Of a stretch of DNA of 64,000 nucleotides, positions 23,939 through 62,547 are shown one piece after another. The translations under genes and the position numbers were made by a program. The DNA comes from an uncultured Bacteroides sp. (GTDB lineage: Bacteria > Bacteroidota > Bacteroidia > Bacteroidales > GCA-2748055), in the NCBI GenBank assembly GCA_964500835.1, contig CAZCQL010000005.1, forward strand, positions 27,733 to 91,732, read 5' to 3'. The notes under the pieces were generated by a model that was given only the letters and a program-made list of their open reading frames with translations, was not told the DNA's origin and searched no databases. The number at the start of each line of letters is the position of its first letter. Positions within the stretch are counted from its first letter, which is position 1.

Positions 23939-24100
23939 TGAAGAAGAAATTGATTGCCGGCAGGGAGGATGTCATATACCGCAAGCTGGCGCGTCTCTGA
24001 TCCTTATCCATGGAACAAATGTTGTGGTCTCTGTTGCGCAGGTAACATCGGCTTGGAATTCCACTACTGATTTCAGAAATTGGTTCCAAACTGAACTGCC

Positions 24101-27712: not shown

Positions 27713-27858
27713 ACTGAAGAGAAATAACTATCTGAGCATCTACCTGGGAGGCCACCCTCTTTACCTCAGAATCCATGGCGGGTCCCTGGAAAAGACTGGG
27801 AACAATGGTTGTGAATGATTCAAACCCGGGAGAAGATCTGTAACTAATACAAAGCTTT

Positions 27859-30217: not shown

Positions 30218-30281
30218 AATATGAGGAATATAAGCTTGAAAATTGGAATTACCGAATTAGAGTATTTATAAAATTATACCT

Positions 30282-31751: not shown

Positions 31752-31801
31752 TAAACTATTTCAGCAGGTTGACTTCCATAAAGACCGGTGATTTATTGCA
31801 C

Positions 31802-33370
31802 TTATTTCTCTTCCATGAACCAGACCTGGGGCCAGTTACCCGATATGCTGTCATTGGATTGTGCCAGTCCGGGTGTGCTTCGGCCTTCCCGGATATATCT
31901 GGTTAACAGTGATCTCAGTTCCGCAACTTTTTCCGGTTCCTGCGCCTGGAGATTGTGGGTCTCTGCCACATCTTCTGCCAGGTTGTAGAGCTGGATCTGC
32001 GGCAGAGTGTCAATCTCCATGCATTGTTTGGGGGTGGGAAAGCTCCAGCCCCCCGATCCGGGACAGGTAATCAGTTTCCAGTCCCCCTTCCGGATGGCAA
32101 AATCACCTGAAATTGAGTGATGCACGGTAGCCTCCCGAAGCGGGACCTCAGGCTGCGGTTGATCAAACAGCGGACTCAGGTCATAGCTGTCTTCCCCTTC
32201 ATTGTCACTGACTTCATAACCCGTCAGGCTTGCAAGTGTGGAGAAGAGGTCGGTGGTACATACCACCTCTTTGCATACCGATCCGGGCTGTATGCGTGCA
32301 GGCCATTTAATAATGAAGGGCTCACGATGGCCCCCTTCATAGATGTCGGCCTTATTACCCCTATATAAATAGCTTGGATCGTGTCCGAATTCGGCCAGTT
32401 TTTCAAAGTTCGCCCTGGGTGAACAACCGTTGTCACTAATGAAAAAGATCAGTGTGTTTTCCTCAATCCCGGACTCCCGGATAGCTGCCTCCAATTGCCC
32501 CATGTAATCATCCACCATGAGCACAAAATCAGCATAGGGATTGAGACCGCTTTTACCCTGCCATTCTTTCGTGGGCAGGATGGGAGTGTGGGGGGAGGGG
32601 AGCGCCAGGTAAAGGAAGAAAGGCTGATCCTCCACGGAACGCTCCTTAATCAGCTTAATGGCCCGCCGGAAGAAATTGGGTGTGACATCCTCATGGATAA
32701 AGTCACTTCCTGTGGGTCCCTTCCTCCAGAATCCATAGCTGTCCTTATTTACCGTTTCCCTGTCCGGAAGGGCAGTAACCTTTCCGTTTTCCACATACAC
32801 ATAGGGGGCCATATCAAGGGAACCGCAGTGCCCGTAGGAATAATCAAAACCCAGGGTATCCGGTCCGTTTTCCACCGGTGCGCTAAAATCGATCTTTGTG
32901 TTTCCAAATTCCCAGGTAGTTTCGTTTGAAATTTCTTCTCCCTCGATGGCCCAGTCCCAGCCCAGGTGCCATTTGCCTAAAAAGGCCGTATAATAACCCG
33001 ATTCCTTCAGCATAGAGGCCAGGGTGGACCTCTCCGGGGGGATCAGGGCCCTGGAGGTGCCTGACAATACACGGCTCTTCAACCTGCTTCTCCAGTTATA
33101 CCTGCCGGTTAGCAATCCATATCGCGTAGGAGTACATACAGCGGATGAGGTATGGGCATCAGTGAAGCGCATGCCTTCTTCTGCCATCTCATCAAGGTGC
33201 ATGGTGTTGATTTTCCCGTTCTCGTTAAAGCAGGAGAGGTCGCCTATTCCCAGGTCATCGGCAAGGACAACAATGATATTGGGTAATTCATTTTCGGTCG
33301 TGCCCTGCGTGCACGATACAGTGATAGTCAGTGACAGGAATATGATCAGATATTTTAAATAGTTTGACAT
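31802..33370 (-). CDS. Sulfatase (Cys-type FGly)
   Basis: PNIIVVLADDLGIGD. FGly motif is CTPTRYGLLTGRYNWRS. GKWHLG is present. Confidence 0.9.
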   Translation of the reverse strand: MSNYLKYLIIFLSLTITVSCTQGTTENELPNIIVVLADDLGIGDLSCFNENGKINTMHLDEMAEEGMRFTDAHTSSAVCTPTRYGLLTGRYNWRSRLKSRVLSGTSRALIPPERSTLASMLKESGYYTAFLGKWHLGWDWAIEGEEISNETTWEFGNTKIDFSAPVENGPDTLGFDYSYGHCGSLDMAPYVYVENGKVTALPDRETVNKDSYGFWRKGPTGSDFIHEDVTPNFFRRAIKLIKERSVEDQPFFLYLALPSPHTPILPTKEWQGKSGLNPYADFVLMVDDYMGQLEAAIRESGIEENTLIFFISDNGCSPRANFEKLAEFGHDPSYLYRGNKADIYEGGHREPFIIKWPARIQPGSVCKEVVCTTDLFSTLASLTGYEVSDNEGEDSYDLSPLFDQPQPEVPLREATVHHSISGDFAIRKGDWKLITCPGSGGWSFPTPKQCMEIDTLPQIQLYNLAEDVAETHNLQAQEPEKVAELRSLLTRYIREGRSTPGLAQSNDSISGNWPQVWFMEEK

Positions 33371-33382
33371 AGTGTAAATGAA

Positions 33383-34669
33383 TTAGTCTTTCAACGCTAA
33401 ATAGGAGCGTCTTCCATAAATGGCAATAACAATGAAACTGATAAAGGGAAGAATAAAGGAAGCATTTTCAGCTGGCAAGGGTCCTACGGTTTCCAGATCA
33501 ATAATCATGCCTTGCAGTGGAGGCATCAGTGCTCCGCCCACGATTGCCATGACCAGTCCGGCAGCACCCAGGCTGGCATCCTCTCCCACATCCTTCAGTG
33601 CAATCCCGTAAATGGTGGGGAACATCAGTGACATGAATGCGGAGGTGGCTATGAGACAGTACAATCCGGTCATGCCATCAATGAGAATGGTTCCCAGGAT
33701 AGTGGCTATGCCACCCATGGCGAAGATCATCAGCATTTTACGGGCATTCACATAACGCATCATGAGGGTGGCAATAAAGCGGCTACTGAGGAAGATCCCC
33801 ATGGCTACCATGTTGTAGAGTTGGGCTGTAGCCTTGTCGATTCCCAGGCGGCCTGCATACTGGATGATGAAAGTCCAGCACATGATCTGAGCCGCTACAT
33901 AGAAGACCTGGGCCAGCACACCTTCCCGGTAGATTTTGTTTCTAAGAAGCCTTCTGAACGAGTCTCCTGCTCTGGTAGACTCTGTGTGTCCTGATGCGGG
34001 CATTTTCACCAGGGCTATGATCACAAACATCATGATAACCACGACTCCGAGGATCACATAGGGATTCCGGATAATCATCAGGTCATGGGTCCGGATAACT
34101 GCCTTGGTGGCTTCGTCGAGGGAGGGAAATATCAGCTCGCCAGCGGCATTCCGCTTGTCCGAATCGAGGGCTGCCAGGATGACCCGGGATGCCACGAACA
34201 TGCCCAGAAGCGATCCCATGGGATTGAAGGACTGGCTCAGGTTCAGTCTCTGGGTGGCATTCTGTGAGCTCCCCAGGGAGAGGATAAAGGGATTTGCTGT
34301 TGTTTCCAGGAAGGCCAGGCCGAAGGTAAGGATGTACAACGACAGCAGGAAAAAGCTGAACGCCTCGTAGCGGGCAGCAGGCCAGAACAGGAGGGCTCCC
34401 GCCGCATATAGTACAAGGCCCAGCAATATTCCTTTTTTATAATTGTATTTCCTTACAAACAGGGCTGCAGGAATGGCCATGGTGGCATAACCGCCATAAA
34501 AGGCAAGCTGTATCAGTGAGGCTTTGGCATTGCTGATTTCCATGACAGTCTTAAAAGCCGCTACCATAGGATTGGTAATGTCGTTGGCAAAGCCCCACAA
34601 GGCGAATAAACTTGTTATGAGAATAAAGGGGACAAGGAACTTCCTTTCCACCAGGGATCCCTTTTTCAT
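33383..34669 (-). CDS. fucP: MFS sugar transporter, L-fucose:H+ symporter family
   Basis: About 12 TM segments. The N-terminal block FILITSLFALWGFANDITNPMVAAFKTVMEISNAKASLIQLAFYGGYATMAIPAALFVRKY is characteristic of FucP / glucose-galactose transporters. The genomic context has two GH29 fucosidases. Confidence 0.7.
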   Translation of the reverse strand: MKKGSLVERKFLVPFILITSLFALWGFANDITNPMVAAFKTVMEISNAKASLIQLAFYGGYATMAIPAALFVRKYNYKKGILLGLVLYAAGALLFWPAARYEAFSFFLLSLYILTFGLAFLETTANPFILSLGSSQNATQRLNLSQSFNPMGSLLGMFVASRVILAALDSDKRNAAGELIFPSLDEATKAVIRTHDLMIIRNPYVILGVVVIMMFVIIALVKMPASGHTESTRAGDSFRRLLRNKIYREGVLAQVFYVAAQIMCWTFIIQYAGRLGIDKATAQLYNMVAMGIFLSSRFIATLMMRYVNARKMLMIFAMGGIATILGTILIDGMTGLYCLIATSAFMSLMFPTIYGIALKDVGEDASLGAAGLVMAIVGGALMPPLQGMIIDLETVGPLPAENASFILPFISFIVIAIYGRRSYLALKD

Positions 34670-34778
34670 CTTAGTTTGTGTCAGATTATTTTCTAAGGAT
34701 GCGTAAAGATGTTTGAAATAGCTCTGTTTTGCAATGCTTAAAAATTATAAATTTGTGTCTGAAATCAATATTTAATCT
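34670..34778. promoter_or_regulatory. Divergent control region between fucP and the AraC regulator, with a direct repeat TGTnTGAAAT
   Basis: TGTTTGAAAT at 34710-34719 and TGTCTGAAAT at 34756-34765, spaced 46 bp apart. The operator function is inferred, not shown. Confidence 0.3.
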
Positions 34779-35711
34779 ATGGGAGCCTTATCCAAGGTGC
34801 CAGACAGGGGAGATCCTTCAGATGTGCTTCAATTATTTCCCCGCTTCAACCTGCAGGTTCTCTGCTGTCGTTACTGGTGGCTGAGCCGCTGGGAGTTCCG
34901 GGAACTGTCCTATCCATACTGGCGGGTGTATCACAACAGCAGGGAGGGTGCAGAAATAATATATGATGGAAAAGAATACCCGCTCCGGCCGGAAAAGATT
35001 CTGATGATCGCTCCAAATACTTCCTACTCAACACATATCGAAAATTACCAGGTACCGGACATTGGTTACAAGCTTGAAGGGGCCCGCATTGTAGGGAAGG
35101 AGGAAGAAGCGTTCATGGCCGATGAGAAGATCCTGCACCTCTTTATTCATTTCAACATCGGGGTCCCCTATGATCATATCTCCCCGGGGATCTTTGAGTT
35201 TCCTCTTACCAGCCATCTTCAGGAGAAGCTGAAAATCATTAAGAACCATTTGATGGAGAATTACTCCACCTTTGATTTTTACACCCTCCTGTCCATACAT
35301 TCCCTTCTCAGCGACATGCTGTCCTTTGTGCCTGAATCAAGATGGGACATGATGTCCAACGACCACAGGATTCTCCAGGTCCTCAGTTATATTGAGTCCT
35401 GTATGGATGGGGAACTTTCAAACAAGGTGCTGGCTTCAAAGGCTTCCCTGGCTACCAATTCCTTTAATCGCCTTTTTACTGAAGACATAGGCATCCCGCC
35501 CCAGAAATATGTGAAAAAGATGCGTATCAACAGGGCCTGTGCGTTGCTGCACCACTCCACATATACCATCGAGCAGGTGGCCAATGAAACTGGATTTGCG
35601 GACCGATATCATTTTTCCAAGATCTTTAAGAATCTGACCGGGCTTTCACCAGCCATGTACCGCAAGGAGTTTGGAGTAAAACAGGGAATGGCAGTTCAAC
35701 GACCATTTTAA
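34779..35711 (+). CDS. AraC-family transcriptional regulator
   Basis: C-terminal double HTH: LASKASLATNSFNRLFTEDIGIPPQKYVKKMRINRACALL...IEQVANETGFADRYHFSKIFKNLTGLSPAMYRKE. Confidence 0.85.
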   Translation: MGALSKVPDRGDPSDVLQLFPRFNLQVLCCRYWWLSRWEFRELSYPYWRVYHNSREGAEIIYDGKEYPLRPEKILMIAPNTSYSTHIENYQVPDIGYKLEGARIVGKEEEAFMADEKILHLFIHFNIGVPYDHISPGIFEFPLTSHLQEKLKIIKNHLMENYSTFDFYTLLSIHSLLSDMLSFVPESRWDMMSNDHRILQVLSYIESCMDGELSNKVLASKASLATNSFNRLFTEDIGIPPQKYVKKMRINRACALLHHSTYTIEQVANETGFADRYHFSKIFKNLTGLSPAMYRKEFGVKQGMAVQRPF

Positions 35712-35849
35712 ACAATACTAATTCAGCCTTGCCTTCAGCAGGGGTTTCAGTATCAGGCATAGAATAACCGGCCAAAAGGAGGGTGATTCCTGCTGCGCAG
35801 AGGATTCTAAGCATATGAGTTATCATATGAGCCAGCTTTCTTTCCTGTA

Positions 35850-37241
35850 TCAATAGTTCCCCGGCATGGGATAATAGTTTGAGCCGGATGTTTCTGTCGG
35901 ATTCCCCTGGGGAATGGAGGCCTTGAACTCCAGCAGAACTTTGCTGAATTCTTCCACCAGTCCGGGATTCTGATCGGCCAGGTTATCCACCTCCATGCAC
36001 TGCGGATCGGTTTCGAAATCATAGAGTTCTTTCCTGGATCCGTCGGGATTCATCAGAAATTTCCACTTCCCCGACCGGAGGGCCAGTCCGGGACTCTTAT
36101 TAATGGGATGACCTGCCTGGGTAGCAGTCCAGTCCCACAGCAGGGGTTGATCCCTTACTATGGGTTCTCCCTGAAGTATGGAGCTGATATCCTGTCCGTC
36201 CGGTTCGTATCCGTAAGGAAGTTCAATGCCTGCCAGGCTGCAGAAGGTGGGCAACAGGTCCACCGTGCCGGCAATGCTCCGATCATCCACGAGGCCTTCC
36301 GGCGTATGGCCCTTCCATTTGGCGATGAATGGAACGCGCACACCTCCGTCATACAGGCTTCTTTTCCGTCCCCTTAGCGGACCCGGCGAACCGACCCCGC
36401 TATGGGCCGCATTGAGGATGTTGATGTCTTCCGGACCATTGTCACTGGAGAATACAATGAGGGTGTTCTCACTCAGTCCCAGTTCATCCAGCTTTTGGAG
36501 CAGGCGGCCAATGTGAATGTCCAGGTCCGTTACGGCCCCGTAGAAGATCTGCCGGGGTGTGGAGAATCCTCTTTCCTTTGCCGCTCCCTGGGGCCCCAGT
36601 TTTTCATAGGGGGCCATCTGTTCCTCGGTGGGGTCCAGCAGGGCATGGGGCACCAGGGTCCATACGTTCACATAGAAGCTTTCATCCCTGTTCTTCTCAA
36701 TGAAGGCAATGGCTTCGTCTACGATTTTTTCGGAGGACTCATGCCGGGGACATCTCAGTTTCCTGTCACTGGAGTTGGTAGTATAATGCTCATCAATGCC
36801 ATAAGCAGAGGGAGTAGGTGCATCCTCCGAACCACCCAGGTGCCATTTGCCGAAATGGCCGGTTTTGTACCCGTTTTCCTGCATCAGTCGTGTCAGCAGG
36901 GTGACGTTCGGATCCAGGAAATCGGGCATATTGTTGGCCACATGGTTTGCATGACTGGAAAAATGTCTGTGTATCCTGTGCCTGGCGGGGTACTGTCCGG
37001 TCATAACTGCGGTCCGTGAGGGAGAGCAGACCGGGCTGGCCACATAGAAATTGGTCAGCAACACACCTTCAGAGGCCATTTGATCCAGGTAAGGGGTTTT
37101 CAAATAGGGATGTCCATAGCATCCCAGGTCGCCCCATCCAAGGTCATCGGCAAAGATGAAGATGAAGTTCGGACGCCCGGATGCCCGGGTACTGAGTACC
37201 GAAAGTAGAACTATGGCTAAAACAAGAATTTTTCTTTTCAT
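35850..37241 (-). CDS. Sulfatase (Cys-type FGly)
   Basis: PNFIFIFADDLGWGDLGCYG. FGly motif is CSPSRTAVMTGQYPARH. GKWHLGG is present. Confidence 0.9.
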   Translation of the reverse strand: MKRKILVLAIVLLSVLSTRASGRPNFIFIFADDLGWGDLGCYGHPYLKTPYLDQMASEGVLLTNFYVASPVCSPSRTAVMTGQYPARHRIHRHFSSHANHVANNMPDFLDPNVTLLTRLMQENGYKTGHFGKWHLGGSEDAPTPSAYGIDEHYTTNSSDRKLRCPRHESSEKIVDEAIAFIEKNRDESFYVNVWTLVPHALLDPTEEQMAPYEKLGPQGAAKERGFSTPRQIFYGAVTDLDIHIGRLLQKLDELGLSENTLIVFSSDNGPEDINILNAAHSGVGSPGPLRGRKRSLYDGGVRVPFIAKWKGHTPEGLVDDRSIAGTVDLLPTFCSLAGIELPYGYEPDGQDISSILQGEPIVRDQPLLWDWTATQAGHPINKSPGLALRSGKWKFLMNPDGSRKELYDFETDPQCMEVDNLADQNPGLVEEFSKVLLEFKASIPQGNPTETSGSNYYPMPGNY

Positions 37242-37251
37242 GGCTTACAGC

Positions 37252-38505: not shown

Positions 38506-38683
38506 TCTTGATGTTCCCGCATATAAATATCCCGTCGATCTGATCGTGCCCCGCCATTTCCACGCAGTGGTCTACCCGCCAGCTCCTCAATTCCTATTAG
38601 ATTAATAAAACCCTGTGAAATCCCTAATTTCGGAAACCATAGACAGTAATCATTGCTCAGAATCGCCAAAATCATTGTCAGGA

Positions 38684-40258: not shown

Positions 40259-40281
40259 TTCTTTTTTATTTGCCAGTAAAA

Positions 40282-42129
40282 TTACTCAAAGCTCATTTCA
40301 AGGGCAAATCCTTTCCCACCGGTTTCCACTCCCCGGAGATCAACCCGGAGCTCCTCGTCCGTCTGTTCCCAATCGATGGTCCGGTCATCACCCAACAGCC
40401 GCACGTTTCCGATGATCCCATTTGCGTTTTTCAGGGAACGGATCCGTATCATATCGGGGCCTGGAACCAGGGAGATGGCATACACCCTGTCTTTTTTGGA
40501 AGTAAACCAGAATTCGCTGCTGCTGAAGTCCCTGGAGAAACCTTTTTCAGCCCTGTGTCCGGTTCCTTCCAGAAGAGTTTCTTCCCGGCTTTCCGATGTA
40601 ATTTTCCAGCGGGAAGTGCCATAAATTGCCTCCCCATTTACCTGCAGCCATTCTCCCACCTCGAGCAGTCCCTGTGCACTGGCCTCGGGTACATGACCCT
40701 TTCCGTCGGGACCGATATTAAGAAGATAGTTACCACCTTTGGAGGCAATGTCGATCAGGTAATAGAGCAGCTCCCGGGTGCTTTTCCAGTCCTCGTCATA
40801 GGATTTGTAACCCCATGAATTATTGGTGGTACCACAGGTTTCCCATAGTTTCGCCAGTTTATCCGAGGCAGAGGGGATCACATTATCTCCGGCATCCAGG
40901 TAATCGCCGAAATCGTATCCCACCCTCCGGTTGACCAGCACATTTGGATTTATTTCATAAATAGTTTTATAGAATCGCCAGGACTGGTCTTCTGTAAGAT
41001 TCCCGTCCCCGTCGAACCAGATCAGGGCCAGTTCCGGCATCAGTTGCAAAAGCTCCTTTATCTGGGGATAGGCTTTATTGTCCAGGTATTCCTGGAAGGT
41101 ATTGGGACTGGGATCCCATAGGTTTTTACCATTGGCGTGAGAGAGTACGCCTATGGAATCATTATATCTTTTTACATTGGCATGGTTTCCGTCGGTTCCG
41201 TCATACCAGTCGTTGCCGTGGGAATAATAGACTCCGAACTTCAGTCCCTTTTCCAGGCAGGCATCGTAGAGCTCTTTGACTGCATCGGCTCCATAGGGTG
41301 TTGCGTCCACCATGTCATAATCGGAACATTCCGAATCAAAGAGTGCGAAACCATCGTGGTGCTTGGAAGTGATTACCACGTAATTCATTCCCGCATCTGC
41401 CGCCAGTGTGGCAATCACCTCTGCGAATGATCGATCGGGATTGAAGGTCTCCGCCAGTTTTGCATATTCTTCCCGTGATATCCGGAATTTAAACATCAGC
41501 CACTCGGCCACATTGGGTCCCGGATAGGGCGCATCATTTATGCGGATTCCCTTCCAGATCCCCCCCGCCTGGGAATAGAGTCCCCAGTGAATGAACATGC
41601 CGAATTTAGCCTCCCTGAGCCATGCCAGGGCCGCTTGCTTTTCCGGGGAGTTATGCATTGCCGACCATTCCTTTTCGTACTTTCCTGTGCCAAAGCCCAG
41701 GTTTCGGCCATAGGGTGGAACGATTCGGATCTGCTGAATAGCCGGATTGGCATCAATGCTCAGGGACTCATTCCCGACATCTTTAAAGGAAACCTTTCCG
41801 CTGAAATGGGAGACTGTTTGTTTTCCTTGCTCCGAATCCAGCACAAAGATCTTCTCGGGCGCTTCTTTGATAACCTGTCCCCCGCATTCCAAGCTCAGCT
41901 CAGGAATAGGAGAGGGGAGTTCTCCGTCGCTGATGATCTGTACGTTATAGCTTCCCTTTCGTTTTAGGATGAAATTCCAGGACAGTGTACCCTTCGTTTC
42001 TAAGGCATCGGTGCGCTTCAACACCACCCAGTGGTTGTCACCCTGAATGATTTGTTGCTCGGAAGAATTCTTACAAGCGAAAGTGATCATCCCCAGACCT
42101 GCAAGGAGGATTATTATTTTATTTCTCAT
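40282..42129 (-). CDS. Alpha-L-fucosidase, GH29, with an extra N-terminal domain; lipoprotein
   Basis: FGMFIHWGLYSQAGG...YVVITSKHHDGFALFDS...WETCGTTNNSWGY. Lipobox ITFAC. Confidence 0.85.
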   Translation of the reverse strand: MRNKIIILLAGLGMITFACKNSSEQQIIQGDNHWVVLKRTDALETKGTLSWNFILKRKGSYNVQIISDGELPSPIPELSLECGGQVIKEAPEKIFVLDSEQGKQTVSHFSGKVSFKDVGNESLSIDANPAIQQIRIVPPYGRNLGFGTGKYEKEWSAMHNSPEKQAALAWLREAKFGMFIHWGLYSQAGGIWKGIRINDAPYPGPNVAEWLMFKFRISREEYAKLAETFNPDRSFAEVIATLAADAGMNYVVITSKHHDGFALFDSECSDYDMVDATPYGADAVKELYDACLEKGLKFGVYYSHGNDWYDGTDGNHANVKRYNDSIGVLSHANGKNLWDPSPNTFQEYLDNKAYPQIKELLQLMPELALIWFDGDGNLTEDQSWRFYKTIYEINPNVLVNRRVGYDFGDYLDAGDNVIPSASDKLAKLWETCGTTNNSWGYKSYDEDWKSTRELLYYLIDIASKGGNYLLNIGPDGKGHVPEASAQGLLEVGEWLQVNGEAIYGTSRWKITSESREETLLEGTGHRAEKGFSRDFSSSEFWFTSKKDRVYAISLVPGPDMIRIRSLKNANGIIGNVRLLGDDRTIDWEQTDEELRVDLRGVETGGKGFALEMSFE

Positions 42130-43925
42130 TAAAGTTTTTCAATATATACGTAGTACGCGGGATATACCCGTCCGTCTTTGTCCACCAGCTGGGCTTCCAT
42201 ATCGTATTTGCCGGCCGGGATCCTGGCGGTAAAGCTCACCTCCTTCTGTCCTTCCTGGATTTTGGCTGTCTTCTGCAGGTTGGCCACATAGATACACGCC
42301 TCTGTGAAGTCCGACTTTACACTGGCCGGAAATAACCTGTCCAGTTCGATCTGGGGCTCCTGCTGCGGGAAAGTGGCATTGATCTCCAGTCCGCTTTCCC
42401 TGGGGAACCGGCACAGGCTGACCTTGTATTCACCATCCTCGGCAAACTGGATCTTCCACCGCCCGGTGGACTGGGTGGCAAGGGCCGCTCCGTACTGGTG
42501 CCATCCACGGGCAAATTTGCTTGTTAACATGTCATGGGCGGAAATGCGGGTGGGGTTCTCATAGGGGGTCCCCACTATGATGTATGCATAATGTTCGTTG
42601 GGACCTTCATCCATGATAGATTGCCACCAGTTCTCATAGCCAACGGCAAGACGCGCCGCCACCTCGGGATGGTGGTCGATCACGTTGGTACTTTGTCCCA
42701 GGTCTGTTCTCATATCATGGAGTTCATTACCGTTTACCAGCCGCCAGTTGTCATCCATCACGGAGTACTTCCTGTATTTAACCAGGTTTTGCAGCCTTTG
42801 GGTGTCCATGTACAATATTCGCTTGGGCCAGTTTACATTCTCACTGTACAGCAGAGGTTTCAGGCTCATGCCGTCCAGGGGCTTCACCGGATGAAAATTC
42901 AAACCCAGTAGATCCACAAAGGTGGGCAGCAGGTCGTAATGGGCCACCAGCTTATCGATATCCTTTCCCCCGGTTAGTTGGCCGTCAGGCCAGCGGATGA
43001 AGAAGGGAACCCGGTGTCCGCCTTCGTACTCACTTCCCTTGCCTCCCTTCATTCCTGCATCATATACCCTGTTGCCTCCGGCTGTCCCGTTGTCCGTAGT
43101 GAAGATCAGGATAGTGTTGTCGGTCAGACCCAGTTCATCAAGTTTGTCCTGGAGGATCTTGAAATTATCGTCTATATTGGTGATCATCCCGTAAAATCGC
43201 TTATAGCGTTCGGCCAGGTCCTTCTCATCCTTATAGATGTTGTAGTATGATTCAGGAACGTTCAGGGGAGCATGCGGGGCATTGGTGGAGATATAGCAGA
43301 AAAAGGGATTGTCCTTGTTCTTTTCAATGAACTTCAGTGCCTCTGAAAAGAATACATCCGTGCAGTAACCCTTGTAGGCTTCCATCTCCCCATTGTGCCA
43401 GTAGGTGTCGTCAAAATAATCGTTCCCCCAGTAATCGGGTCCCTGGGTTATGCCACCTCCACCATGCCTCACAACTTCATGGAAACCCCTGTCCTCGGGA
43501 CGGAAGGGATAGTTATCCCCCAGGTGCCATTTGCCGAACATACCATTGGTATAGCCGTTCCGGGCAAAGATCTGGGGAAGGATCACCTCATCTGCAAATA
43601 ACAGGGAGCGCCCGGTGATGGTGTGGAATACGTTTACCCGGTTGGTATGCCTTCCGCTCATAAGTGCACCTCTGGTAGGCGCACAGGTGGTGGATACATG
43701 GTAGTTGGTGAAGCGGACCGATTCGTTATAGAAATCATCGATATGTGGAGTCTTGATATAAGGATTTCCCAGGCAGGCCAGGTCATTCTTTCCCTGGTCA
43801 TCGGTGATTACAAATACAATATTTGGTTTTTCTTTGACAGGATTTTTTGCGTCCAGGACCGATGGCATATGGACGATGAGTAATGCCACAAAAGTACTTG
43901 CTGCAAAAAGGATATTTTTCTTCAT
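42129..43925 (-). CDS. Sulfatase (Cys-type FGly) with a C-terminal beta-sandwich domain
   Basis: Start placed at the ATG at 43925 (MKKNILFAASTFVALLIV), which removes the overlap with the upstream gene. PNIVFVITDDQG. FGly motif is CAPTRGALMSGRH. The stop overlaps the GH29 start by 1 nt (TAATG). Confidence 0.9.
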   Translation of the reverse strand: MKKNILFAASTFVALLIVHMPSVLDAKNPVKEKPNIVFVITDDQGKNDLACLGNPYIKTPHIDDFYNESVRFTNYHVSTTCAPTRGALMSGRHTNRVNVFHTITGRSLLFADEVILPQIFARNGYTNGMFGKWHLGDNYPFRPEDRGFHEVVRHGGGGITQGPDYWGNDYFDDTYWHNGEMEAYKGYCTDVFFSEALKFIEKNKDNPFFCYISTNAPHAPLNVPESYYNIYKDEKDLAERYKRFYGMITNIDDNFKILQDKLDELGLTDNTILIFTTDNGTAGGNRVYDAGMKGGKGSEYEGGHRVPFFIRWPDGQLTGGKDIDKLVAHYDLLPTFVDLLGLNFHPVKPLDGMSLKPLLYSENVNWPKRILYMDTQRLQNLVKYRKYSVMDDNWRLVNGNELHDMRTDLGQSTNVIDHHPEVAARLAVGYENWWQSIMDEGPNEHYAYIIVGTPYENPTRISAHDMLTSKFARGWHQYGAALATQSTGRWKIQFAEDGEYKVSLCRFPRESGLEINATFPQQEPQIELDRLFPASVKSDFTEACIYVANLQKTAKIQEGQKEVSFTARIPAGKYDMEAQLVDKDGRVYPAYYVYIEKL

Positions 43926-43929
43926 ATTT

Positions 43930-44955
43930 CTATTTCCAGTCCTCAATTTTAAGGATGAATCCGGCTTCCCTGCTTCCATGGTTTGCCAGGAAGAGGTATT
44001 CGGGATTCCCATCTTTCCACAAGATATGTGGTCTTTCGGTCCGGGAGAGTTCTTCCCCAAAATAATAGCTATTTGTCTGGTATCCGACCTCCGGTATTCC
44101 CCAGTCGATACCGTTTTCTGAGGTGTATATCAGGCCCGGACGATTTCCTCCGGCTCTGATCTGGTCCTTTTCCAGCGGATGACCCTCCAGGGCATCTTTA
44201 ACGTCCATACGATCTTCAACGATAATATAATAGGAGCCTTTGTAATAGAAGGCATAGGGATCCTCAATATCCAATCCGAGATACTCGTAAGAGATCAGTG
44301 GATTATCGGGATGATCGATCCAGGGTCCGTCAAAATTGTCGGCGGTTGCAAGGGAAATTGTTCTCCGTACAGGTTTATGGTCCGAGATCGATTTGTAATA
44401 GATCCTGTAGCGGCCATCCTCATCCACCAGGAAACTGGGATTGGAGGCGTGCAGGGCATGTGCGTCTCCGGCGATAAAAGAGGGCCTGATAATGGGATTG
44501 TTCGGGCTCTCCTTCCATGGCCCGTACAGGGATTTGGCAGTGGCAAGACCGATACTCTGTTGAAGGCTTGGGGTGGAGTTGCTTTTCCAGAGAAAGACCA
44601 TGACATAGGTATCGCCAACCTTTGATATCTGGGGATTGTGATAGGTAGCCGTATCGGATGTGAATGTGGTATCCACAAAAGTGTAGGGACCTTCAGGAGT
44701 GTCTGCCGTAAAATGTAGGATCCTGCTGTCGGTGGTCCAGCTTCCGTTGTCAGGGATCGCTGACATAAATACATGCAACTGACCCTCTTCATCATAGATG
44801 GGTGCCATGCACCAGTTCCACCAGCCATCTTCGGCTTCCAGGATGTATTTGACCGGCACCAGTGATTTACAAAAGGAGGATTCCTTTATGGTCACATTCT
44901 TTGTGCAGGAGAAGCATAACAGGAGTAAACAAATGGAGAAATATATTCTGTTCAT
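43930..44955 (-). CDS. Uncharacterised beta-propeller-like putative glycoside hydrolase, paralog of the C-terminal half of 30282-31751
   Basis: Start placed at the ATG at 44955 (MNRIYFSICLLLLCFSC, lipobox). Shared blocks are CMAPIYDEEGQLHVFMSAIP, HFTADTPEGPYTFVD, HNPQISKVGDTYVMVF, GLATAKSLYGPWKE and ERPHILWKDGNPEYLFLA. Confidence 0.45.
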   Translation of the reverse strand: MNRIYFSICLLLLCFSCTKNVTIKESSFCKSLVPVKYILEAEDGWWNWCMAPIYDEEGQLHVFMSAIPDNGSWTTDSRILHFTADTPEGPYTFVDTTFTSDTATYHNPQISKVGDTYVMVFLWKSNSTPSLQQSIGLATAKSLYGPWKESPNNPIIRPSFIAGDAHALHASNPSFLVDEDGRYRIYYKSISDHKPVRRTISLATADNFDGPWIDHPDNPLISYEYLGLDIEDPYAFYYKGSYYIIVEDRMDVKDALEGHPLEKDQIRAGGNRPGLIYTSENGIDWGIPEVGYQTNSYYFGEELSRTERPHILWKDGNPEYLFLANHGSREAGFILKIEDWK

Positions 44956-45269
44956 TGTCGAATGATCTTTGATGAGCAATTGAATCACACGCTTATTTAT
45001 TCATACTAAAATTCCCTTTTTATTTGCAGAATGATTCGCTCATATCTCTCATCCACTTGCTCAAATCAGACTTTTAATTGTTTATTCCTGCTTTATGATC
45101 GTTTTACGCTTCACCACCAGGGGATTGTTCCATTGCCTGTCGTTGTAAATCCTCTGTGCAGGCATTACATCGATCTCCAGTCCCCCGTCCGTATTCCTGA
45201 AAAGTGGAGAAGGATCCACATTCTTTTGATATGCGGGTACACCGGGAGTGTTAAACAACTACATGGATA

Positions 45270-47060
45270 CTAATGGATCGGGCTGATCTTAATTGCTTCA
45301 AGGCTGGCAGTTTTCGGATTGCCTTCGACCAGGGACACTGACAGGGTGTGTTCTCCGGCTGTCTTAAATTTGATGATACCCATGGGATAGTACTGGTATT
45401 TTTCGGTTGCTGCCTGCTGATTCTGCACCATGATCTTCTCATCGGTAAGCGTTCTCCACACCAGCCTGTCTTCTCCCCTGTATCGAAGATCAAGGTAGTA
45501 ATAACCGGGCTCCATCACTTCAATGGTCCACTTTGCATAGCTGTCTTCAGACCAGTTGCTTACCTGGTTCACATGTTTCCATTCTCCGAATTTTTCCATC
45601 CATTTGATTTTCTCCCTGCCAGCGCCGCTCACTTCCGCAAACTCAACCAGTAGTTCTGATTCAATATTCGGGCAAATACCAAGGGTAGGATCCACAGCAG
45701 CAGATCCTGCATTGCTTACCAGTTCAACCTCGATCACAGAGACCGGGAAATCTGCAGGTTTGTAGGGAAGGTTCAGTACAGTCCATTCACTGTCCTGCGT
45801 AAAAGTTATTTCCTTTGGCAGGCCAGTGCCCAGGATCTTTGCGGAAACAATCTCAGTTTCCAGGCCGGATAGGTAGAGTTTTGCATCCTGTGGCCATTGG
45901 AAAACAGAAAGATAGAGGGAGTTATCCCTGGTAGTCACATCACCCCAGGGCAAATCATGCTCCCAGGGGGAAGGTCCGGCTGAATAAATAACCTGGGGAT
46001 ACTTACTGATCCATTTTCCGACTTCCCGCAGGAATTGAACACCCGCATCCGGGATATGCCCTTTGCTATCCGGACCTACATTAAACAGGTAAGACCCCCC
46101 GCGTCCAACTGTGGAGATCAGCCTGCGCAGTATCTCTTTCGGACTTTTAAAGTTGTTGTCATACCAGGCATAAGACCAGGAATCATTGTTGGTATCGCAG
46201 GTTTCCCACAGGCCTTTTATATTCCTGGGAGGAACCTCCATATCTCCTTTGCTGGCATAGTCCCCCATACCGTGGCCTACCCGGCTGCAGAGCATGGCAT
46301 TGGGTTGCAATTCACGAACCAGATCCACCAGTTCAACAATATATTTCTTAGGCATGTTGCCCGGGGTATCGAACCATATAAAGTCCAGTTCTCCGTAATT
46401 GCTGCATATCTCCTTTACCTGGGGTTTGCATTTGGTGTAGAAGTAATGATCAAAACTGGCAGGTGAGCCGTCCGGGTTTTTATCGGGCCCTCCATGCGCC
46501 CCGGGGGAAGTCCAGTCCTGGTTGTGAGAATAATAAAAGCCAAAGCCCAGTCCGAGTTTCTCACATGCTTCGGACAACTCTTTCATGGGGTCCCTTGCAA
46601 AGGAAGTGGCGTCCACAATATTGAAATCACTGACTTCCGATTTGAACATGGCAAATCCATCATGGTGTTTACTGTTGATGATGATGTATTTCATACCGGC
46701 ATCCTTAGCCAGTTGTGCAATGGCCATGGCATCAAAATCGCTGGGATTGAATTCTTCAGCGACTTTCATGTATTCCTTCACCGGAATTCCTGCCATTCTG
46801 GGACTCATAATCCATTCACCGATTCCGTAGTAGGTGGTATCGTGCCATTCACCACCCAGTTGGGAGAATAGTCCCCAGTGAATGAACATGGCAAAATTGC
46901 TTTCATCGAACAGCTTACCACGACCGGCTTTCAGGGCATCCACACTTACCGTAGAATTTCCCCACATCTTATCCATGCGCTGAATGGGTTCCCTGGCTTC
47001 CTGGGCATATCCCGTCACGATGATCATGAATAGAATCAGGATTGTATTAATCTTCTTCAT
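45270..47060 (-). CDS. Alpha-L-fucosidase, GH29
   Basis: Start placed at the ATG at 47060 (MKKINTILILFMIIVTGYAQE). FAMFIHWGLFSQLGGEW...YIIINSKHHDGFAMFKS...WETCDTNNDSWSY. Confidence 0.85.
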   Translation of the reverse strand: MKKINTILILFMIIVTGYAQEAREPIQRMDKMWGNSTVSVDALKAGRGKLFDESNFAMFIHWGLFSQLGGEWHDTTYYGIGEWIMSPRMAGIPVKEYMKVAEEFNPSDFDAMAIAQLAKDAGMKYIIINSKHHDGFAMFKSEVSDFNIVDATSFARDPMKELSEACEKLGLGFGFYYSHNQDWTSPGAHGGPDKNPDGSPASFDHYFYTKCKPQVKEICSNYGELDFIWFDTPGNMPKKYIVELVDLVRELQPNAMLCSRVGHGMGDYASKGDMEVPPRNIKGLWETCDTNNDSWSYAWYDNNFKSPKEILRRLISTVGRGGSYLFNVGPDSKGHIPDAGVQFLREVGKWISKYPQVIYSAGPSPWEHDLPWGDVTTRDNSLYLSVFQWPQDAKLYLSGLETEIVSAKILGTGLPKEITFTQDSEWTVLNLPYKPADFPVSVIEVELVSNAGSAAVDPTLGICPNIESELLVEFAEVSGAGREKIKWMEKFGEWKHVNQVSNWSEDSYAKWTIEVMEPGYYYLDLRYRGEDRLVWRTLTDEKIMVQNQQAATEKYQYYPMGIIKFKTAGEHTLSVSLVEGNPKTASLEAIKISPIH

Positions 47061-49034: not shown

Positions 49035-49045
49035 AGGTTGTACTT

Positions 49046-52219: not shown

Positions 52220-52234
52220 AATCAGAGTTTAATA

Positions 52235-53785: not shown

Positions 53786-53809
53786 AATTAACTCTTTTTC
53801 TCATCAGTC

Positions 53810-56825: not shown

Positions 56826-56838
56826 AGCTTGTAGTTTA

Positions 56839-60081: not shown

Positions 60082-60088
60082 TCTTTCT

Positions 60089-62424: not shown

Positions 62425-62432
62425 CAAATATA
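62425..62432 (-). promoter_or_regulatory. Candidate Bacteroidota -7 promoter box (TATATTTG on the minus strand) for the FAS1-SusC-SusD operon
   Basis: Exact TAnnTTTG match 53 nt upstream of the ATG at 62371, and downstream of the terminator hairpin. I found no clean -33 TTTG at consensus spacing. Confidence 0.35.
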
Positions 62433-62518: not shown

Positions 62519-62547
62519 CAGAAACTACTACTTACTACAAGAAGAGA

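What the first reader, a model, noticed from the sequence alone, without database searches (positions are those of the whole stretch)
31802..47060. Fucose-centred sulfatase locus under an AraC regulator; no sulfatase maturase in view
Seen in sequence:
- Four sulfatases in this interval, plus one at 20652-22430, all carry Cys-type C-x-P-x-R motifs: CTPTR, CSPSR, CTPSR, CAPTR and CSPTR.
- Two GH29 alpha-L-fucosidases are present.
- A FucP-type permease is divergent from an AraC regulator.
- An alpha/beta-hydrolase esterase is present.
- Genes are tightly packed: TAATG overlap at 42129, a 4-nt gap at 43925/43930, and a 23-nt gap at 40258/40282.

Established knowledge: GH29, multiple S1 sulfatases, an esterase and fucose import together are the recurrent toolkit for sulfated, acetylated fucans (fucoidan-like) or fucosylated sulfated host glycans. 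Cys-type sulfatases need FGE or anSME for activation.

Inference:
- The substrate is a sulfated fucose-rich polysaccharide.
- The maturase must be encoded elsewhere.
- Regulation by an AraC protein adjacent to the monosaccharide permease suggests product (fucose) sensing. This differs from the hybrid two-component or SusR/ECF systems usual for PULs.
Basis: partly seen in the sequence, partly recalled or inferred. Interest (0 to 1): 0.6.

Follow-up and report, generated by a model that had tools for sequence, protein, structure and literature searches.

The report
Fucoidan-type PUL with embedded fucose regulator
The interval is the enzyme-rich tail of an ordinary Bacteroidota polysaccharide-utilisation locus for a sulfated fucose-rich glycan, and its AraC protein is the lineage's conserved L-fucose-operon regulator sitting inside that locus, not a replacement for the usual hybrid two-component sensor, which lies just past the window edge.

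Summary
There are five Cys-type S1 sulfatases, two GH29 fucosidases, a true FucP divergent from an AraC regulator, an esterase and tight gene packing. No maturase is in view, which is normal.

From 47160 to 62371, on the same strand, lie two SusC/SusD pairs and three fasciclin lipoproteins. A metagenome contig 100% identical to the window's right end adds a T9SS protein and a 1387-aa hybrid two-component regulator. This is a canonical PUL.

The AraC has 42-81% identical orthologues across Marinilabiliales. In 63 of 78 loci its nearest upstream divergent gene is fucI (fucP in 8, fucK in 7). A conserved 20-bp element is duplicated upstream of fucI where fucI is detached from araC. Fucose sensing is therefore well supported, but for fucP-sulfatase, not for the whole locus.

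The fucoidan-type substrate gains support. Sulfatase 4, both GH29s and a GH117-like propeller have 57-71% identical relatives, taken as orthologues, in loci of Wenyingzhuangia fucanilytica and Mariniflexile fucanivorans. However, three sulfatases resemble S1_15 and S1_20 galactose sulfatases, and no endo-fucanase was recognised.

Verdict: new member of a known kind, of modest interest.

The parts
31802..33370 (-). Sulfatase 1. Cys-type (CTPTR) S1 sulfatase and lipoprotein, S1_15-like. It starts 12 nt downstream of fucP and is probably co-transcribed with it.
   Evidence: PF00884 at E 6e-50. The top 8 PDB sequence hits are all S1_15: 6S20, 7OZE, 9BAS, 9BAU, 7P26, 9S7X, 9S85 and 7OZC (mapping, PMC10154620). 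The FucP-sulfatase pair is conserved in L002/L007, L005 and L009 at 70-78% identity.
33383..34669 (-). FucP, the L-fucose:H+ symporter.
   Evidence: TIGR00885 at 572 bits, cut-off 280.
34670..34778 (.). Divergent control region of 109 nt. It holds the araC promoter -7 box TAAATTTG at 34748, a diverged copy of the family-wide element (TTTGTGTCTGAAATCAATAT), and a direct repeat TTTGTGTCWGA at 34675 and 34752.
   Evidence: Alignment of 46 orthologous spacers. The two exact 11-mers occur only here in the window.
34779..35711 (+). AraC/XylS-family regulator, orthologue of the Marinilabiliales fuc-operon regulator.
   Evidence: HTH_18 and HTH_AraC. 357 homologues. Context in 80 genomes. The AF2 model shows a cupin-like N-domain plus two HTH, and matches ToxT, Rns and the AraC sugar-binding domain.
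35850..37241 (-). Sulfatase 2. Cys-type (CSPSR), SPI signal peptide, S1_20-like.
   Evidence: PF00884 at E 6.6e-55. The best PDB hit is BT1636 (7AN1) at 230 bits; the next is 191 bits.
37252..38475 (-). Alpha/beta-hydrolase esterase. It is a lipoprotein, distantly CE7/AXE1-like, with a GISWGG nucleophile motif.
   Evidence: Peptidase_S9 and AXE1. PDB 6AGQ at E 7e-8. An 81% identical orthologue sits next to the Sulf2 orthologue in L005.
38684..40258 (-). Sulfatase 3. Cys-type (CTPSR) lipoprotein, S1_15-like.
   Evidence: PF00884 at E 2.3e-54. The top 8 PDB hits are all S1_15, led by BT1624 (7OZE) at 269 bits.
40282..42129 (-). GH29 alpha-L-fucosidase a. A lipoprotein with an N-terminal extra domain and Fucosidase_C.
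   Evidence: PF01120 at E 1.6e-76. PDB 9S0X at 511 bits. 57% identical to the 615-aa GH29 of Mariniflexile fucanivorans.
42129..43925 (-). Sulfatase 4. Cys-type (CAPTR), with a C-terminal extension of about 170 aa. The subfamily is unresolved.
   Evidence: PF00884 at E 2e-57. PDB hits are ambiguous, S1_19/S1_16 at about 200 bits. 71% identical over 589 aa to the 595-aa sulfatase beside the GH29 and GH117-like genes in W. fucanilytica.
43930..44955 (-). GH117-like five-bladed beta-propeller lipoprotein (weak Pfam GH43 match).
   Evidence: Pfam GH43 at 47 bits. AF2 pLDDT 89.6, and the top 14 Foldseek hits are GH117 at TM 0.59-0.67. 60-68% identical relatives include W. fucanilytica AXE80_07375 and M. 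fucanivorans. Helbert et al. 2026 place AXE80_07375 in an uncharacterised GH117 clade.
45270..47060 (-). GH29 alpha-L-fucosidase b. SPI signal peptide and a C-terminal beta-sandwich region.
   Evidence: PF01120 at E 1.6e-74. PDB 9RZY at 946 bits. 66-67% identical to GH29s next to HTCS genes in M. fucanivorans and a Wenyingzhuangia species.
47160..49034 (-). SusD-like lipoprotein 1.
   Evidence: PF07980 at 37 bits, cut-off 23. Lipoprotein signal.
49046..52219 (-). SusC-like TonB-dependent transporter 1.
   Evidence: TIGR04056 at 568 bits, cut-off 368.
52235..55387 (-). Two fasciclin-domain lipoproteins, Fas1 (52235-53785) and Fas2 (53810-55387). They are probably surface glycan-binding proteins.
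   Evidence: PF02469. Lipoprotein signals.
55365..56867 (-). SusD-like lipoprotein 2.
   Evidence: SusD_RagB and SusD-like_3. The JGI gene call is 500 aa.
56839..60081 (-). SusC-like TonB-dependent transporter 2.
   Evidence: TIGR04056 at 701 bits.
60089..62371 (-). Fasciclin-domain lipoprotein Fas3, the first gene of the PUL transcription unit.
   Evidence: PF02469 at E 2.5e-25. Lipoprotein signal.
62425..62432 (-). Bacteroidota -7 promoter box TATATTTG. It lies upstream of Fas3 and follows a terminator hairpin (GGAGCCGGTC...GACCGGCTCC then TTTTT).
   Evidence: Apart from the araC promoter, this is the only exact TAnnTTTG box found between the genes of the locus in 20-64 kb.
62548..64000 (-). 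C-terminal part of a 1301-aa T9SS-secreted LTD/PKD protein. The rest of it, and the HTCS regulator, lie beyond the window.
   Evidence: L088 is 100% identical to window 50089-64000.
20652..22430 (-). Sulfatase 0. Cys-type (CSPTR), with unresolved subfamily. It lies 9 kb to the left, and its membership of the locus is uncertain.
   Evidence: PF00884 at E 1.7e-62. Translation. PDB hits are ambiguous.

Best explanation
The interval 31802-47060 is the downstream, exo-enzyme part of one large Bacteroidota (Marinilabiliales-like) polysaccharide-utilisation locus for a sulfated, probably acetylated, fucose-rich glycan of the fucoidan type.

Likely working order (inferred):
1. A hybrid two-component sensor lies 1.9 kb beyond the window. 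It detects oligosaccharide and switches on the promoter at about 62430.
2. That promoter drives Fas3, SusC2, SusD2, Fas2, Fas1, SusC1, SusD1 and GH29b. Transcription probably continues into the GH117-like gene, Sulf4, GH29a, Sulf3, the esterase and Sulf2.
3. Surface lipoproteins bind the glycan, and the SusC/D pairs import it.
4. Exported sulfatases, the esterase, the GH29 fucosidases and the GH117-like enzyme strip sulfate, acetyl and fucose.
5. The AraC protein senses L-fucose or a metabolite of it through its cupin-like N-domain. It activates the divergent fucP-sulfatase 1 operon, so that free fucose is taken up.

Regulation therefore has two tiers. The HTCS controls the polymer machinery and the AraC protein controls monosaccharide salvage.

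Shown here: the gene identities, the locus architecture, the presence of the HTCS, the association of AraC orthologues with fuc operons, and high identity to genes in loci of known fucoidan degraders.

Inferred: the effector, the extent of the regulon, the operon boundaries and the exact substrate.
For: - Gene identities.
- Locus extension: L088/L089 is 100% identical to window 50089-64000. It adds a T9SS protein, a 1387-aa HTCS with Reg_prop, Y_Y_Y, HisKA, HATPase, receiver and HTH_AraC domains, an SDR and an FAH-family hydrolase.
- Promoters: among the gene gaps of the locus, exact TAnnTTTG boxes occur only at the araC promoter and upstream of Fas3.
- AraC orthologues: 80 species-representative genomes carry them. 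The nearest divergent gene is fucI in 63, fucP in 8 and fucK in 7 of 78 loci. Spacer length is 104-128 nt in 46 of them.
- Candidate operator: the 20-mer TTTGTATCTGTTTTAAACAT occurs in 70 loci, once in 65 of them. It is duplicated upstream of fucI in L047 and L050, where fucI is detached from araC.
- Conserved linkage: L007, whose AraC is 70% identical, has Sulf1<-FucP<-|->AraC->FGGY->FucI placed directly against the same SusD1/SusC1/Fas1 cassette.
- Fucoidan link: Sulf4 is 71%, the GH117-like protein 60-68%, GH29a 57% and GH29b 66-67% identical to genes in the loci of W. fucanilytica, M. fucanivorans and a Wenyingzhuangia species. Those loci also hold GH95, GH141, SusC/D or an HTCS.
- W. fucanilytica uses sulfated fucans, and its SWF1 and SWF4 are fucoidan sulfatases (PMC6315715).
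- The AraC model has a cupin-like sensor domain.
Against: - No endo-fucanase (GH107, GH168, GH174 or GH187), GH95 or GH141 was recognised in the window or its extension.
- Sulf1 and Sulf3 resemble S1_15, and Sulf2 resembles S1_20. The characterised members of these subfamilies remove sulfate from galactose or GalNAc, not fucose.
- SulfAtlas and dbCAN could not be run, so subfamily calls rest on nearest solved structures.
- The window's own spacer matches the family operator poorly, with a PWM score under 8 bits of a maximum 33.6. The operator in this lineage is therefore undefined, and the regulon could be wider than fucP-sulf1.
- Gaps of 314 nt (GH29b to the GH117-like gene) and 208 nt (Sulf3 to the esterase) could hold unrecognised promoters.
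- The HTCS is seen on a metagenome contig identical to the window over 13.9 kb, not in the window itself.
- No expression data exist.
Confidence: 0.65

Rival explanations
1. The AraC protein is the master regulator of the whole sulfatase/fucosidase cluster. It senses the product fucose and replaces the HTCS, SusR or ECF logic of ordinary PULs.
For: - The AraC gene sits in the middle of the enzyme genes.
- In at least 12 related loci the AraC-fuc module has sulfatases or GH29 genes within 10 kb. Examples are L013 and L018, where Sulf4 and Sulf3 orthologues of about 70% identity lie downstream of araC.
- The operator in this lineage is not defined, so further sites cannot be excluded.
Against: - An HTCS lies one gene upstream of the SusC/D string, on a contig 100% identical to the window.
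- Neither the family 20-mer nor the window's own 11-mer repeat occurs elsewhere in the window.
- AraC is convergent with the Sulf2-esterase genes, not upstream of them.
- In 63 of 78 loci the orthologue's nearest upstream divergent gene is fucI, that is, a monosaccharide catabolic operon.
Confidence: 0.1
2. The target is not algal fucoidan. It is instead a fucosylated, galactose- or GalNAc-sulfated animal or host-type glycan, such as mucin-like O-glycans with sulfated Lewis epitopes or invertebrate fucosylated glycosaminoglycans.
For: - Sulf1 and Sulf3 are closest to S1_15 enzymes (6S-Gal/GalNAc, including the 6'S-Lewis-active Amuc0121). Sulf2 is closest to the S1_20 enzyme BT1636 (3S-Gal).
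- No endo-fucanase was found.
- The left-hand neighbours include GH123-like and BNR/sialidase-like proteins.
- GH29-containing PULs target many substrates.
Against: - Close relatives (57-71% identity) of four enzymes lie in fucoidan loci of W. fucanilytica and M. fucanivorans.
- S1_15 and S1_16 sulfatases also occur in fucoidan PULs and are induced there (PMC11685898).
- No GH20, GH2, GH33-certain, PL8 or GH88 genes typical of mucin or GAG loci lie in the same-strand string.
- The habitat is marine sediment or microbial mat, according to my recollection of the JGI 3300002231 sample label.
Confidence: 0.2
3. The juxtaposition is accidental. A horizontally acquired, GC-richer block (24-44 kb) carrying AraC-FucP and assorted enzymes landed next to an unrelated native SusC/D-fasciclin PUL, and the two do not work together.
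For: GC is 0.50-0.55 for 24-44 kb, against 0.44-0.48 for the SusC/D part and the flanks. The gene content between AraC and SusD1 differs among relatives.
Against: - In L007 the AraC-FucP-fucKI module abuts the orthologous SusD1/SusC1/Fas1 cassette, so the linkage predates the enzyme block.
- GH29b, whose GC is intermediate, follows SusD1 with no recognisable terminator or promoter.
- All genes from Fas3 to Sulf2 share one strand with short gaps.
Confidence: 0.05

Closest known systems
Fucoidan-utilisation loci of Wenyingzhuangia fucanilytica CZ1127 (CP014224, around AXE80_07375) and Mariniflexile fucanivorans
   Same: - Both carry SusC/SusD or an HTCS, several GH29s, several S1 sulfatases and the same GH117-like propeller.
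- Identities to the window are 71% for Sulf4, 60-68% for the GH117-like protein, 57% for GH29a and 66% for GH29b.
- The local order sulfatase, GH117-like, sulfatase, GH29 (615 aa), HTCS in M. fucanivorans mirrors the window.
   Different: - The window has no GH95, GH141, GHL15 or GH107/GH168-type genes.
- It has tandem SusC/D pairs with three fasciclin lipoproteins.
- It carries an embedded AraC-FucP-sulfatase module.
- The host is Marinilabiliales-like, not Flavobacteriaceae.
L-fucose operon regulators: E. coli FucR (DeoR type) and Bacteroides thetaiotaomicron FucR (GntR type). This comparison is from my own knowledge.
   Same: Each is a local regulator next to fucI/K/P/A genes that presumably responds to fucose or a fucose metabolite.
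   Different: - This regulator belongs to the AraC/XylS family, with a cupin-like N-domain.
- It is divergently transcribed across a spacer of about 105-125 nt that carries a conserved 20-bp element.
- My single library search for an AraC-type fucose regulator in Bacteroidota returned no paper describing one.
- In the window it has lost fucI and fucK and keeps only fucP plus a sulfatase.
E. coli AraC and RhaS/RhaR, sugar-responsive AraC/XylS activators
   Same: - Two C-terminal HTH motifs and an N-terminal cupin-like domain. The model matches the AraC sugar-binding domain (2ARC, 2AAC), BgaR and full-length ToxT and Rns.
- It is divergent from its target operon, and the ligands are deoxy or pentose sugars of related shape.
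   Different: - Sequence identity is only 12-16% outside the HTH.
- The effector and the operator half-sites are untested.
- The promoter context is Bacteroidota-type (TAnnTTTG).
S1_15 and S1_20 carbohydrate sulfatases of B. thetaiotaomicron and Akkermansia (BT1624, BT3109, BT4631, BT3333, Amuc0121; BT1636)
   Same: These are the best sequence matches for Sulf1 and Sulf3 (197-269 bits) and for Sulf2 (230 bits). All are Cys-type FGly enzymes with signal peptides.
   Different: - The characterised members act on 6S-Gal/GalNAc or 3S-Gal in mucin, GAG or carrageenan.
- Here the enzymes sit in a fucose-centred locus, and one is fused to the fucP operon.
- Subfamily membership was not verified with SulfAtlas.

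Membership tests
Bacteroidota SusC/SusD polysaccharide-utilisation locus (PUL) | An adjacent susC-like and susD-like gene pair | tested here: met
   There are two pairs. SusC scores 568 and 701 bits on TIGR04056 (cut-off 368). Both SusD proteins pass the PF07980 cut-off.
Bacteroidota SusC/SusD polysaccharide-utilisation locus (PUL) | Co-oriented CAZyme and sulfatase genes contiguous with the SusC/D pair | tested here: met
   All genes from 62371 down to 35850 lie on the minus strand. Gaps are 0-33 nt by ORF coordinates (99 nt before the trimmed GH29b start), except two of 208 and 314 nt.
Bacteroidota SusC/SusD polysaccharide-utilisation locus (PUL) | A dedicated sensor or regulator (HTCS, SusR or ECF/anti-sigma) adjacent | tested here: met
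   A 1387-aa HTCS lies on contig L088/L089, which is 100% identical to window 50089-64000. It is one gene upstream of Fas3. It is not inside the window itself.
Fucoidan (sulfated fucan) utilisation locus | Exo-alpha-L-fucosidases (GH29, GH95 or GH141) | tested here: met
   Two GH29s are present. Pfam found no GH95 or GH141.
Fucoidan (sulfated fucan) utilisation locus | An endo-fucanase (GH107, GH168, GH174, GH187 or Mef1-type) | tested here: not met
   None was recognised by Pfam or PDB searches in the window or the extension. The 1301-aa T9SS protein has no detectable catalytic domain and no similarity to the Mef1-domain protein of L091. Pfam coverage of these families is incomplete, so the absence is not proven.
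Fucoidan (sulfated fucan) utilisation locus | Fucose-specific sulfatase subfamilies (S1_17, S1_22, S1_25) | not testable with these tools
   SulfAtlas is unavailable. Sulf4 and Sulf0 have ambiguous nearest structures. Sulf1-3 look like S1_15, S1_20 and S1_15.
Fucoidan (sulfated fucan) utilisation locus | Close similarity (taken as orthology) to loci of experimentally proven fucoidan degraders | tested here: met
   Four proteins are 57-71% identical, with similar neighbourhoods, in W. fucanilytica and M. fucanivorans. Reciprocal best hits were not checked.
S1 formylglycine-dependent sulfatases, Cys type | A PF00884 fold with a C-x-P-x-R FGly motif | tested here: met
   All five proteins qualify.
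S1 formylglycine-dependent sulfatases, Cys type | A cognate maturase (anSME or FGE) in the genome | not testable with these tools
   None was reported in the scanned ORFs of the 64-kb window or the four genes scanned in the extension. The rest of the genome is not available.
AraC/XylS sugar-responsive regulators | A C-terminal double HTH plus an N-terminal cupin-like ligand and dimerisation domain | tested here: met
   HTH_18 and HTH_AraC. The AF2 model has pLDDT 78. Foldseek matches ToxT and Rns over the full length, and AraC 2ARC/2AAC and BgaR over the N-domain.
AraC/XylS sugar-responsive regulators | L-fucose or a fucose metabolite as effector | not testable with these tools
   This is inferred only from the conserved divergent arrangement with fucI/K/P/A/O in 78 loci.
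AraC/XylS sugar-responsive regulators | A defined operator upstream of the regulated promoter | tested here: inconclusive
   The family-wide 40-bp block is conserved and is duplicated at the detached fucI gene. The window's copy is diverged, at 13 of 20 positions in the core 20-mer and below 8 bits.
FucP L-fucose:H+ symporter | A score above the curated equivalog cut-off | tested here: met
   TIGR00885 at 572 bits against 280.
GH117 | A five-bladed beta-propeller fold closest to GH117 structures, and CAZy placement of orthologues | tested here: met
   The top 14 Foldseek hits are GH117 at TM 0.59-0.67. Helbert et al. 2026 list the orthologue AXE80_07375 in the GH117 tree.
GH117 | Catalytic residues and activity | not tested
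   Active-site residues were not mapped. Sequence identity to the solved GH117 structures is 13-16%.

The most novel reading that the evidence does not exclude
The AraC protein may represent an uncharacterised, order-wide AraC-type L-fucose regulator of Marinilabiliales, with a conserved operator of about 40 bp.

In the window's lineage this regulator appears rewired. It no longer faces the fucI/K catabolic genes. It faces a fucP plus S1_15-like sulfatase operon embedded in a fucoidan PUL. Independent lineages (the window, L005, L007, L009, L075) also append S1_15-like sulfatases to the fucose operon.

This suggests a new S1_15 specificity: desulfation of sulfated fucose or very short fuco-oligosaccharides in the periplasm, just before FucP import. 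The SDR and FAH-hydrolase pair next to the HTCS hints that catabolism may run through a non-phosphorylative route instead of FucI/K.
Probability: 0.25. Interest if true: 0.55.

Novelty: new member of a known kind. Interest (0 to 1): 0.35.

Why it matters
Fucoidans are among the most recalcitrant marine polysaccharides, and their turnover bears on carbon burial. This locus adds a sediment- or mat-dwelling, Marinilabiliales-like lineage to the organisms that carry part of the fucoidan toolkit.

It shows a clean two-tier control layout, with an HTCS for the polymer and an AraC-type regulator for the released fucose.

It also gives testable handles:
- a conserved candidate operator for an unstudied fucose regulator family;
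- S1_15-like sulfatases wired to fucose uptake;
- an uncharacterised GH117 clade that tracks fucoidan loci.

None of this overturns current models.

Tried and rejected
- A single-protein AraC scan of species-representative genomes found nothing. Repeating it with a 28-sequence alignment gave 80 loci.
- An exact-pattern scan of metagenome contigs, meant to extend L088, found 0 matches. I reached the extension instead through the HTCS protein.
- The sigma-70 promoter and terminator scan of 31-48 kb was no better than shuffles.
- The composite Bacteroidota pattern TTTG-N17-23-TAnnTTTG gave 0 matches. Only the -7 box alone was informative.
- I searched for extra operator copies. TTTGTGTCWGA with 1 mismatch gave 5 hits against 2.4 expected, and the three outside the spacer all fall within genes or gene ends. 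The family PWM gave no hit of 8 bits or more in the window.
- Rfam and tRNA scans of the whole window were empty.
- The 1301-aa T9SS protein showed no catalytic domain by Pfam or PDB and no similarity to the Mef1-type protein.
- PDB codes 9RZX, 9RZY and 9S0X, the best GH29 matches, were not found in the paper library. Their source organism and specificity are therefore unknown to me.
- I considered the GH117-like gene as a GH43 arabinofuranosidase or xylosidase and rejected this. GH117 structures outrank GH43 in the fold search, and its orthologues sit in fucoidan loci.

Full report
OBSERVATION

- Four sulfatases lie inside 31802-47060 and one at 20652-22430. All match PF00884 (E 6e-50 to 1.7e-62). 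The motifs are CTPTR, CSPSR, CTPSR, CAPTR and CSPTR.
- There are two GH29 genes, 40282-42129 and 45270-47060.
- The permease at 33383-34669 is a bona fide FucP, at 572 bits on TIGR00885 against a cut-off of 280.
- An AraC/XylS regulator (34779-35711) is divergent from it across 109 nt.
- The gene at 37252-38475 is an alpha/beta-hydrolase with a GISWGG motif and weak CE7/AXE1 similarity.
- The overlaps and short gaps are as stated.
- No FGE or radical-SAM maturase was reported for the ORFs scanned in the window, nor for the four genes scanned in the rightward extension.
- Most of the enzymes carry SPI or lipoprotein signal peptides.

WHAT LIES AROUND IT

On the same strand, immediately to the right of GH29b, the gene string continues:
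- SusD1 (47160-49034)
- SusC1 (49046-52219)
- two fasciclin-domain lipoproteins (52235-55387)
- SusD2 and SusC2 (55365-60081)
- a third fasciclin lipoprotein (60089-62371)

A look-up of the Fas3 protein returned JGI metagenome contigs. One of them, L088/L089, is 100% identical to window 50089-64000 over 13,912 nt. It extends the window by 8.4 kb and shows four things:
- The window's last ORF is the C-terminus of a 1301-aa T9SS-secreted LTD/PKD protein.
- Next comes a 1387-aa hybrid two-component system with Reg_prop, Y_Y_Y, HisKA, HATPase_c, receiver and HTH_AraC domains.
- Then an SDR, and an FAH-family hydrolase closest to 2,4-didehydro-3-deoxy-L-rhamnonate hydrolase (283 bits, below the 500-bit cut-off).
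- Then a MacB/FtsX-like permease.

Among the gene gaps of the locus in 20-64 kb, exact Bacteroidota -7 boxes (TAnnTTTG) occur at only two places. One is the araC promoter at 34748. The other is at 62432 upstream of Fas3, just after a strong terminator hairpin. The interval is therefore the distal enzyme block of a canonical, HTCS-headed PUL.

THE AraC REGULATOR

The protein has 357 homologues at E<=1e-10. Full-length identity is 42-81% in Saccharicrinis, Carboxylicivirga, Marinifilum, Labilibaculum, Draconibacterium, Anaerophaga, Geofilum and related MAGs.

Its genomic context is highly consistent.
- In Saccharicrinis fermentans it is divergent from fucI-fucK-fucP-fucA-fucO.
- Across 78 anchored loci the nearest upstream divergent gene is fucI in 63, fucP in 8 and fucK in 7.
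- In 46 loci, including the window at 109 nt, the spacer is 104-128 nt long.
- These spacers align into a common architecture. A near-consensus -7 box faces the fuc genes. About 23 nt further on lies a 40-bp block, AAATGTTTA-N13-TTTGTATCTGTTTTAAACAT, which also contains the araC -7 box.

The core 20-mer occurs in 70 loci, once in 65 of them. In L047 and L050 fucI is detached from araC, and there the whole block is duplicated upstream of fucI with no araC beside it. This argues that the block is a cis-regulatory site for the fuc promoter and not merely the araC leader.

The AF2 model (pLDDT 78) shows a cupin-like beta domain, two linker helices and two HTH motifs. It matches full-length ToxT and Rns. 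Its N-domain matches the sugar-binding domains of AraC and BgaR.

The inference that this protein senses fucose or a fucose metabolite is therefore well grounded in comparative genomics. It is untested biochemically.

In the window's clade (window, L005, L007, L009, L010) the divergent partner is fucP followed by an S1_15-like sulfatase. The core element has diverged to TTTGTGTCTGAAATCAATAT. Neither the family motif nor the window's own TTTGTGTCWGA repeat recurs elsewhere in the window. The parsimonious regulon is fucP-sulf1 plus autoregulation.

LINKAGE OF THE TWO MODULES

In L007, whose AraC is 70% identical, the order is Sulf1<-FucP<-|->AraC->FGGY->FucI. This sits directly against orthologues of SusD1, SusC1 and Fas1. 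The fucose module and the fasciclin SusC/D cassette were therefore already neighbours.

In the window's lineage an 11-kb enzyme block occupies the place of fucK-fucI. The block is GH29b, the GH117-like gene, Sulf4, GH29a, Sulf3, the esterase and Sulf2. The segment from 24 to 44 kb is GC-richer, at 0.50-0.55 against 0.44-0.48. This is compatible with later acquisition.

In at least a dozen other relatives, sulfatases or GH29 genes lie within 10 kb of the AraC-fuc module.

SUBSTRATE

By nearest solved structures:
- Sulf1 and Sulf3 are S1_15-like. Their top eight hits are all S1_15, including BT1624, BT3109, BT4631 and Amuc0121.
- Sulf2 is S1_20-like, closest to BT1636.
- Sulf4 and Sulf0 are unresolved.

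These assignments come, with mappings. Characterised S1_15 and S1_20 enzymes act on galactose or GalNAc sulfates. On its face this weakens a pure fucan reading.

Similarity to known degraders points the other way. The undescribed gene at 43930-44955 folds as a GH117-like propeller (pLDDT 89.6; the top 14 Foldseek hits are GH117). It has 60-68% identical relatives in Wenyingzhuangia fucanilytica (AXE80_07375), Mariniflexile fucanivorans, Formosa algae, Muricauda and Luteolibacter.

Helbert et al. (bioRxiv 10.64898/2026.05.19.726164) list AXE80_07375 in an uncharacterised GH117 clade. They report weak alpha-L-fucosidase activity in another previously uncharacterised GH117 clade.

The neighbourhoods of these orthologues resemble the window.
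- In W. fucanilytica the gene lies between GH29s. Nearby are SusC/D, GH95, GH141, GHL15 and sulfatases.
- In M. fucanivorans the order is sulfatase, GH117-like, sulfatase, GH29 (615 aa), HTCS, GH29 (597 aa).
- Sulf4 is 71% identical to the W. fucanilytica 595-aa sulfatase.
- GH29a is 57% and GH29b 66% identical to the M. fucanivorans enzymes.
- GH29b is 67% identical to a Wenyingzhuangia GH29 that sits next to a Mef1-domain T9SS protein.

W. fucanilytica grows on brown-algal and sea-cucumber sulfated fucans (PMC6315715). S1_15 and S1_16 sulfatases are also present and induced in planctomycetal fucoidan PULs (PMC11685898).

On balance a fucoidan-type sulfated fucan or galactofucan is the best guess. 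No endo-fucanase, GH95 or GH141 was recognised. The set looks like an exo-acting, oligosaccharide-processing toolkit.

MECHANISM

Best estimate, confidence 0.65:
1. The HTCS senses oligosaccharide and activates the Fas3 promoter.
2. Fasciclin and SusD lipoproteins, together with the two SusC transporters, capture and import the glycan.
3. Exported sulfatases, the esterase, the GH29s and the GH117-like enzyme release fucose.
4. The AraC protein, on binding fucose or a metabolite, activates fucP-sulf1 for uptake.
5. Fucose catabolism genes are not in view. The SDR and FAH-hydrolase pair beside the HTCS hints at a non-phosphorylative route.

Rival explanations are AraC as master regulator (0.1), an animal or host-type fucosylated sulfated glycan as substrate (0.2) and accidental juxtaposition (0.05).

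NOVELTY AND SCORE

This is a new member of a known kind, a fucoidan-type PUL. The "unusual regulation" disappears once the locus is read to its end.

The residual interest lies in three points:
- an apparently unstudied AraC-type fucose regulator family with a conserved operator;
- the recurrent fusion of S1_15-like sulfatases to the fucose-uptake operon;
- the uncharacterised GH117 clade and the fasciclin-SusC/D cassette.

Interest 0.35.

Noticed in passing
window 6031-15208: A single 2805-aa fully reducing type I PKS is followed by a PPTase. Its domain order is KS-AT-DH-cMT-ER-KR-ACP-TE. This FAS/MAS-like single-module architecture is unusual for Bacteroidota.
   Followed up: no
window 47160-62371: The seven-gene cassette Fas3-SusC2-SusD2-Fas2-Fas1-SusC1-SusD1 combines three fasciclin-domain lipoproteins with tandem SusC/D pairs. 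Only one paper in the library mentions fasciclin together with SusD. Part of the same cassette (SusD1, SusC1, Fas1) is seen in L007, up to the end of that locus.
   Followed up: partly
window 62548-64000, continuing in L088 5919-9824: A 1301-aa T9SS-secreted LTD/PKD protein lies between the HTCS and the PUL. It has no recognisable catalytic domain. A 65% identical full-length orthologue again follows the orthologous HTCS in L090. It is a candidate novel endo-acting enzyme or binding protein.
   Followed up: partly
L047 about 12979-13090 and L050 about 12964-13075; family-wide upstream of araC: A conserved 40-bp block, AAATGTTTA-N13-TTTGTATCTGTTTTAAACAT, lies upstream of araC. It is duplicated upstream of fucI where fucI is detached from araC. 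This makes it a candidate operator of an AraC-type fucose regulator.
   Followed up: yes
window 24101-31751: A plus-strand cluster is convergent with sulfatase 1. It holds a 1203-aa GH123-like protein with a weak, sub-threshold CBM_4_9 match, a BNR/sialidase-like protein and a GH43/GH32-like protein. It also holds a 144-aa fragment (29649-30083) that keeps only a signal peptide and the N-terminus of a pectate-lyase-like beta-helix, which looks like a truncated gene.
   Followed up: no
window 24000-44000: GC is 0.50-0.55 (GC3 up to 0.64), against 0.44-0.48 in the flanks and the SusC/D part. This suggests a separately acquired block.
   Followed up: partly
window 796-3975: An adenylate/guanylate cyclase fused to an HD domain (796-2190) lies next to a caspase-like C14 peptidase (2893-3975). 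An unannotated 235-aa ORF sits between them.
   Followed up: no
L089 4532-6132 (beyond the window's right edge): An FAH-family hydrolase and an SDR lie directly upstream of the HTCS. The hydrolase is closest to 2,4-didehydro-3-deoxy-L-rhamnonate hydrolase. These could be the last two steps of a non-phosphorylative L-fucose/L-rhamnose pathway.
   Followed up: partly
L002 2226-5479: In the relative whose AraC is 70% identical, a second AraC gene, a radical-SAM activase and a PFL-like glycyl-radical enzyme lie 5 kb from the fucose module. This resembles B12-independent propanediol dehydratase systems used in anaerobic fucose fermentation.
   Followed up: no
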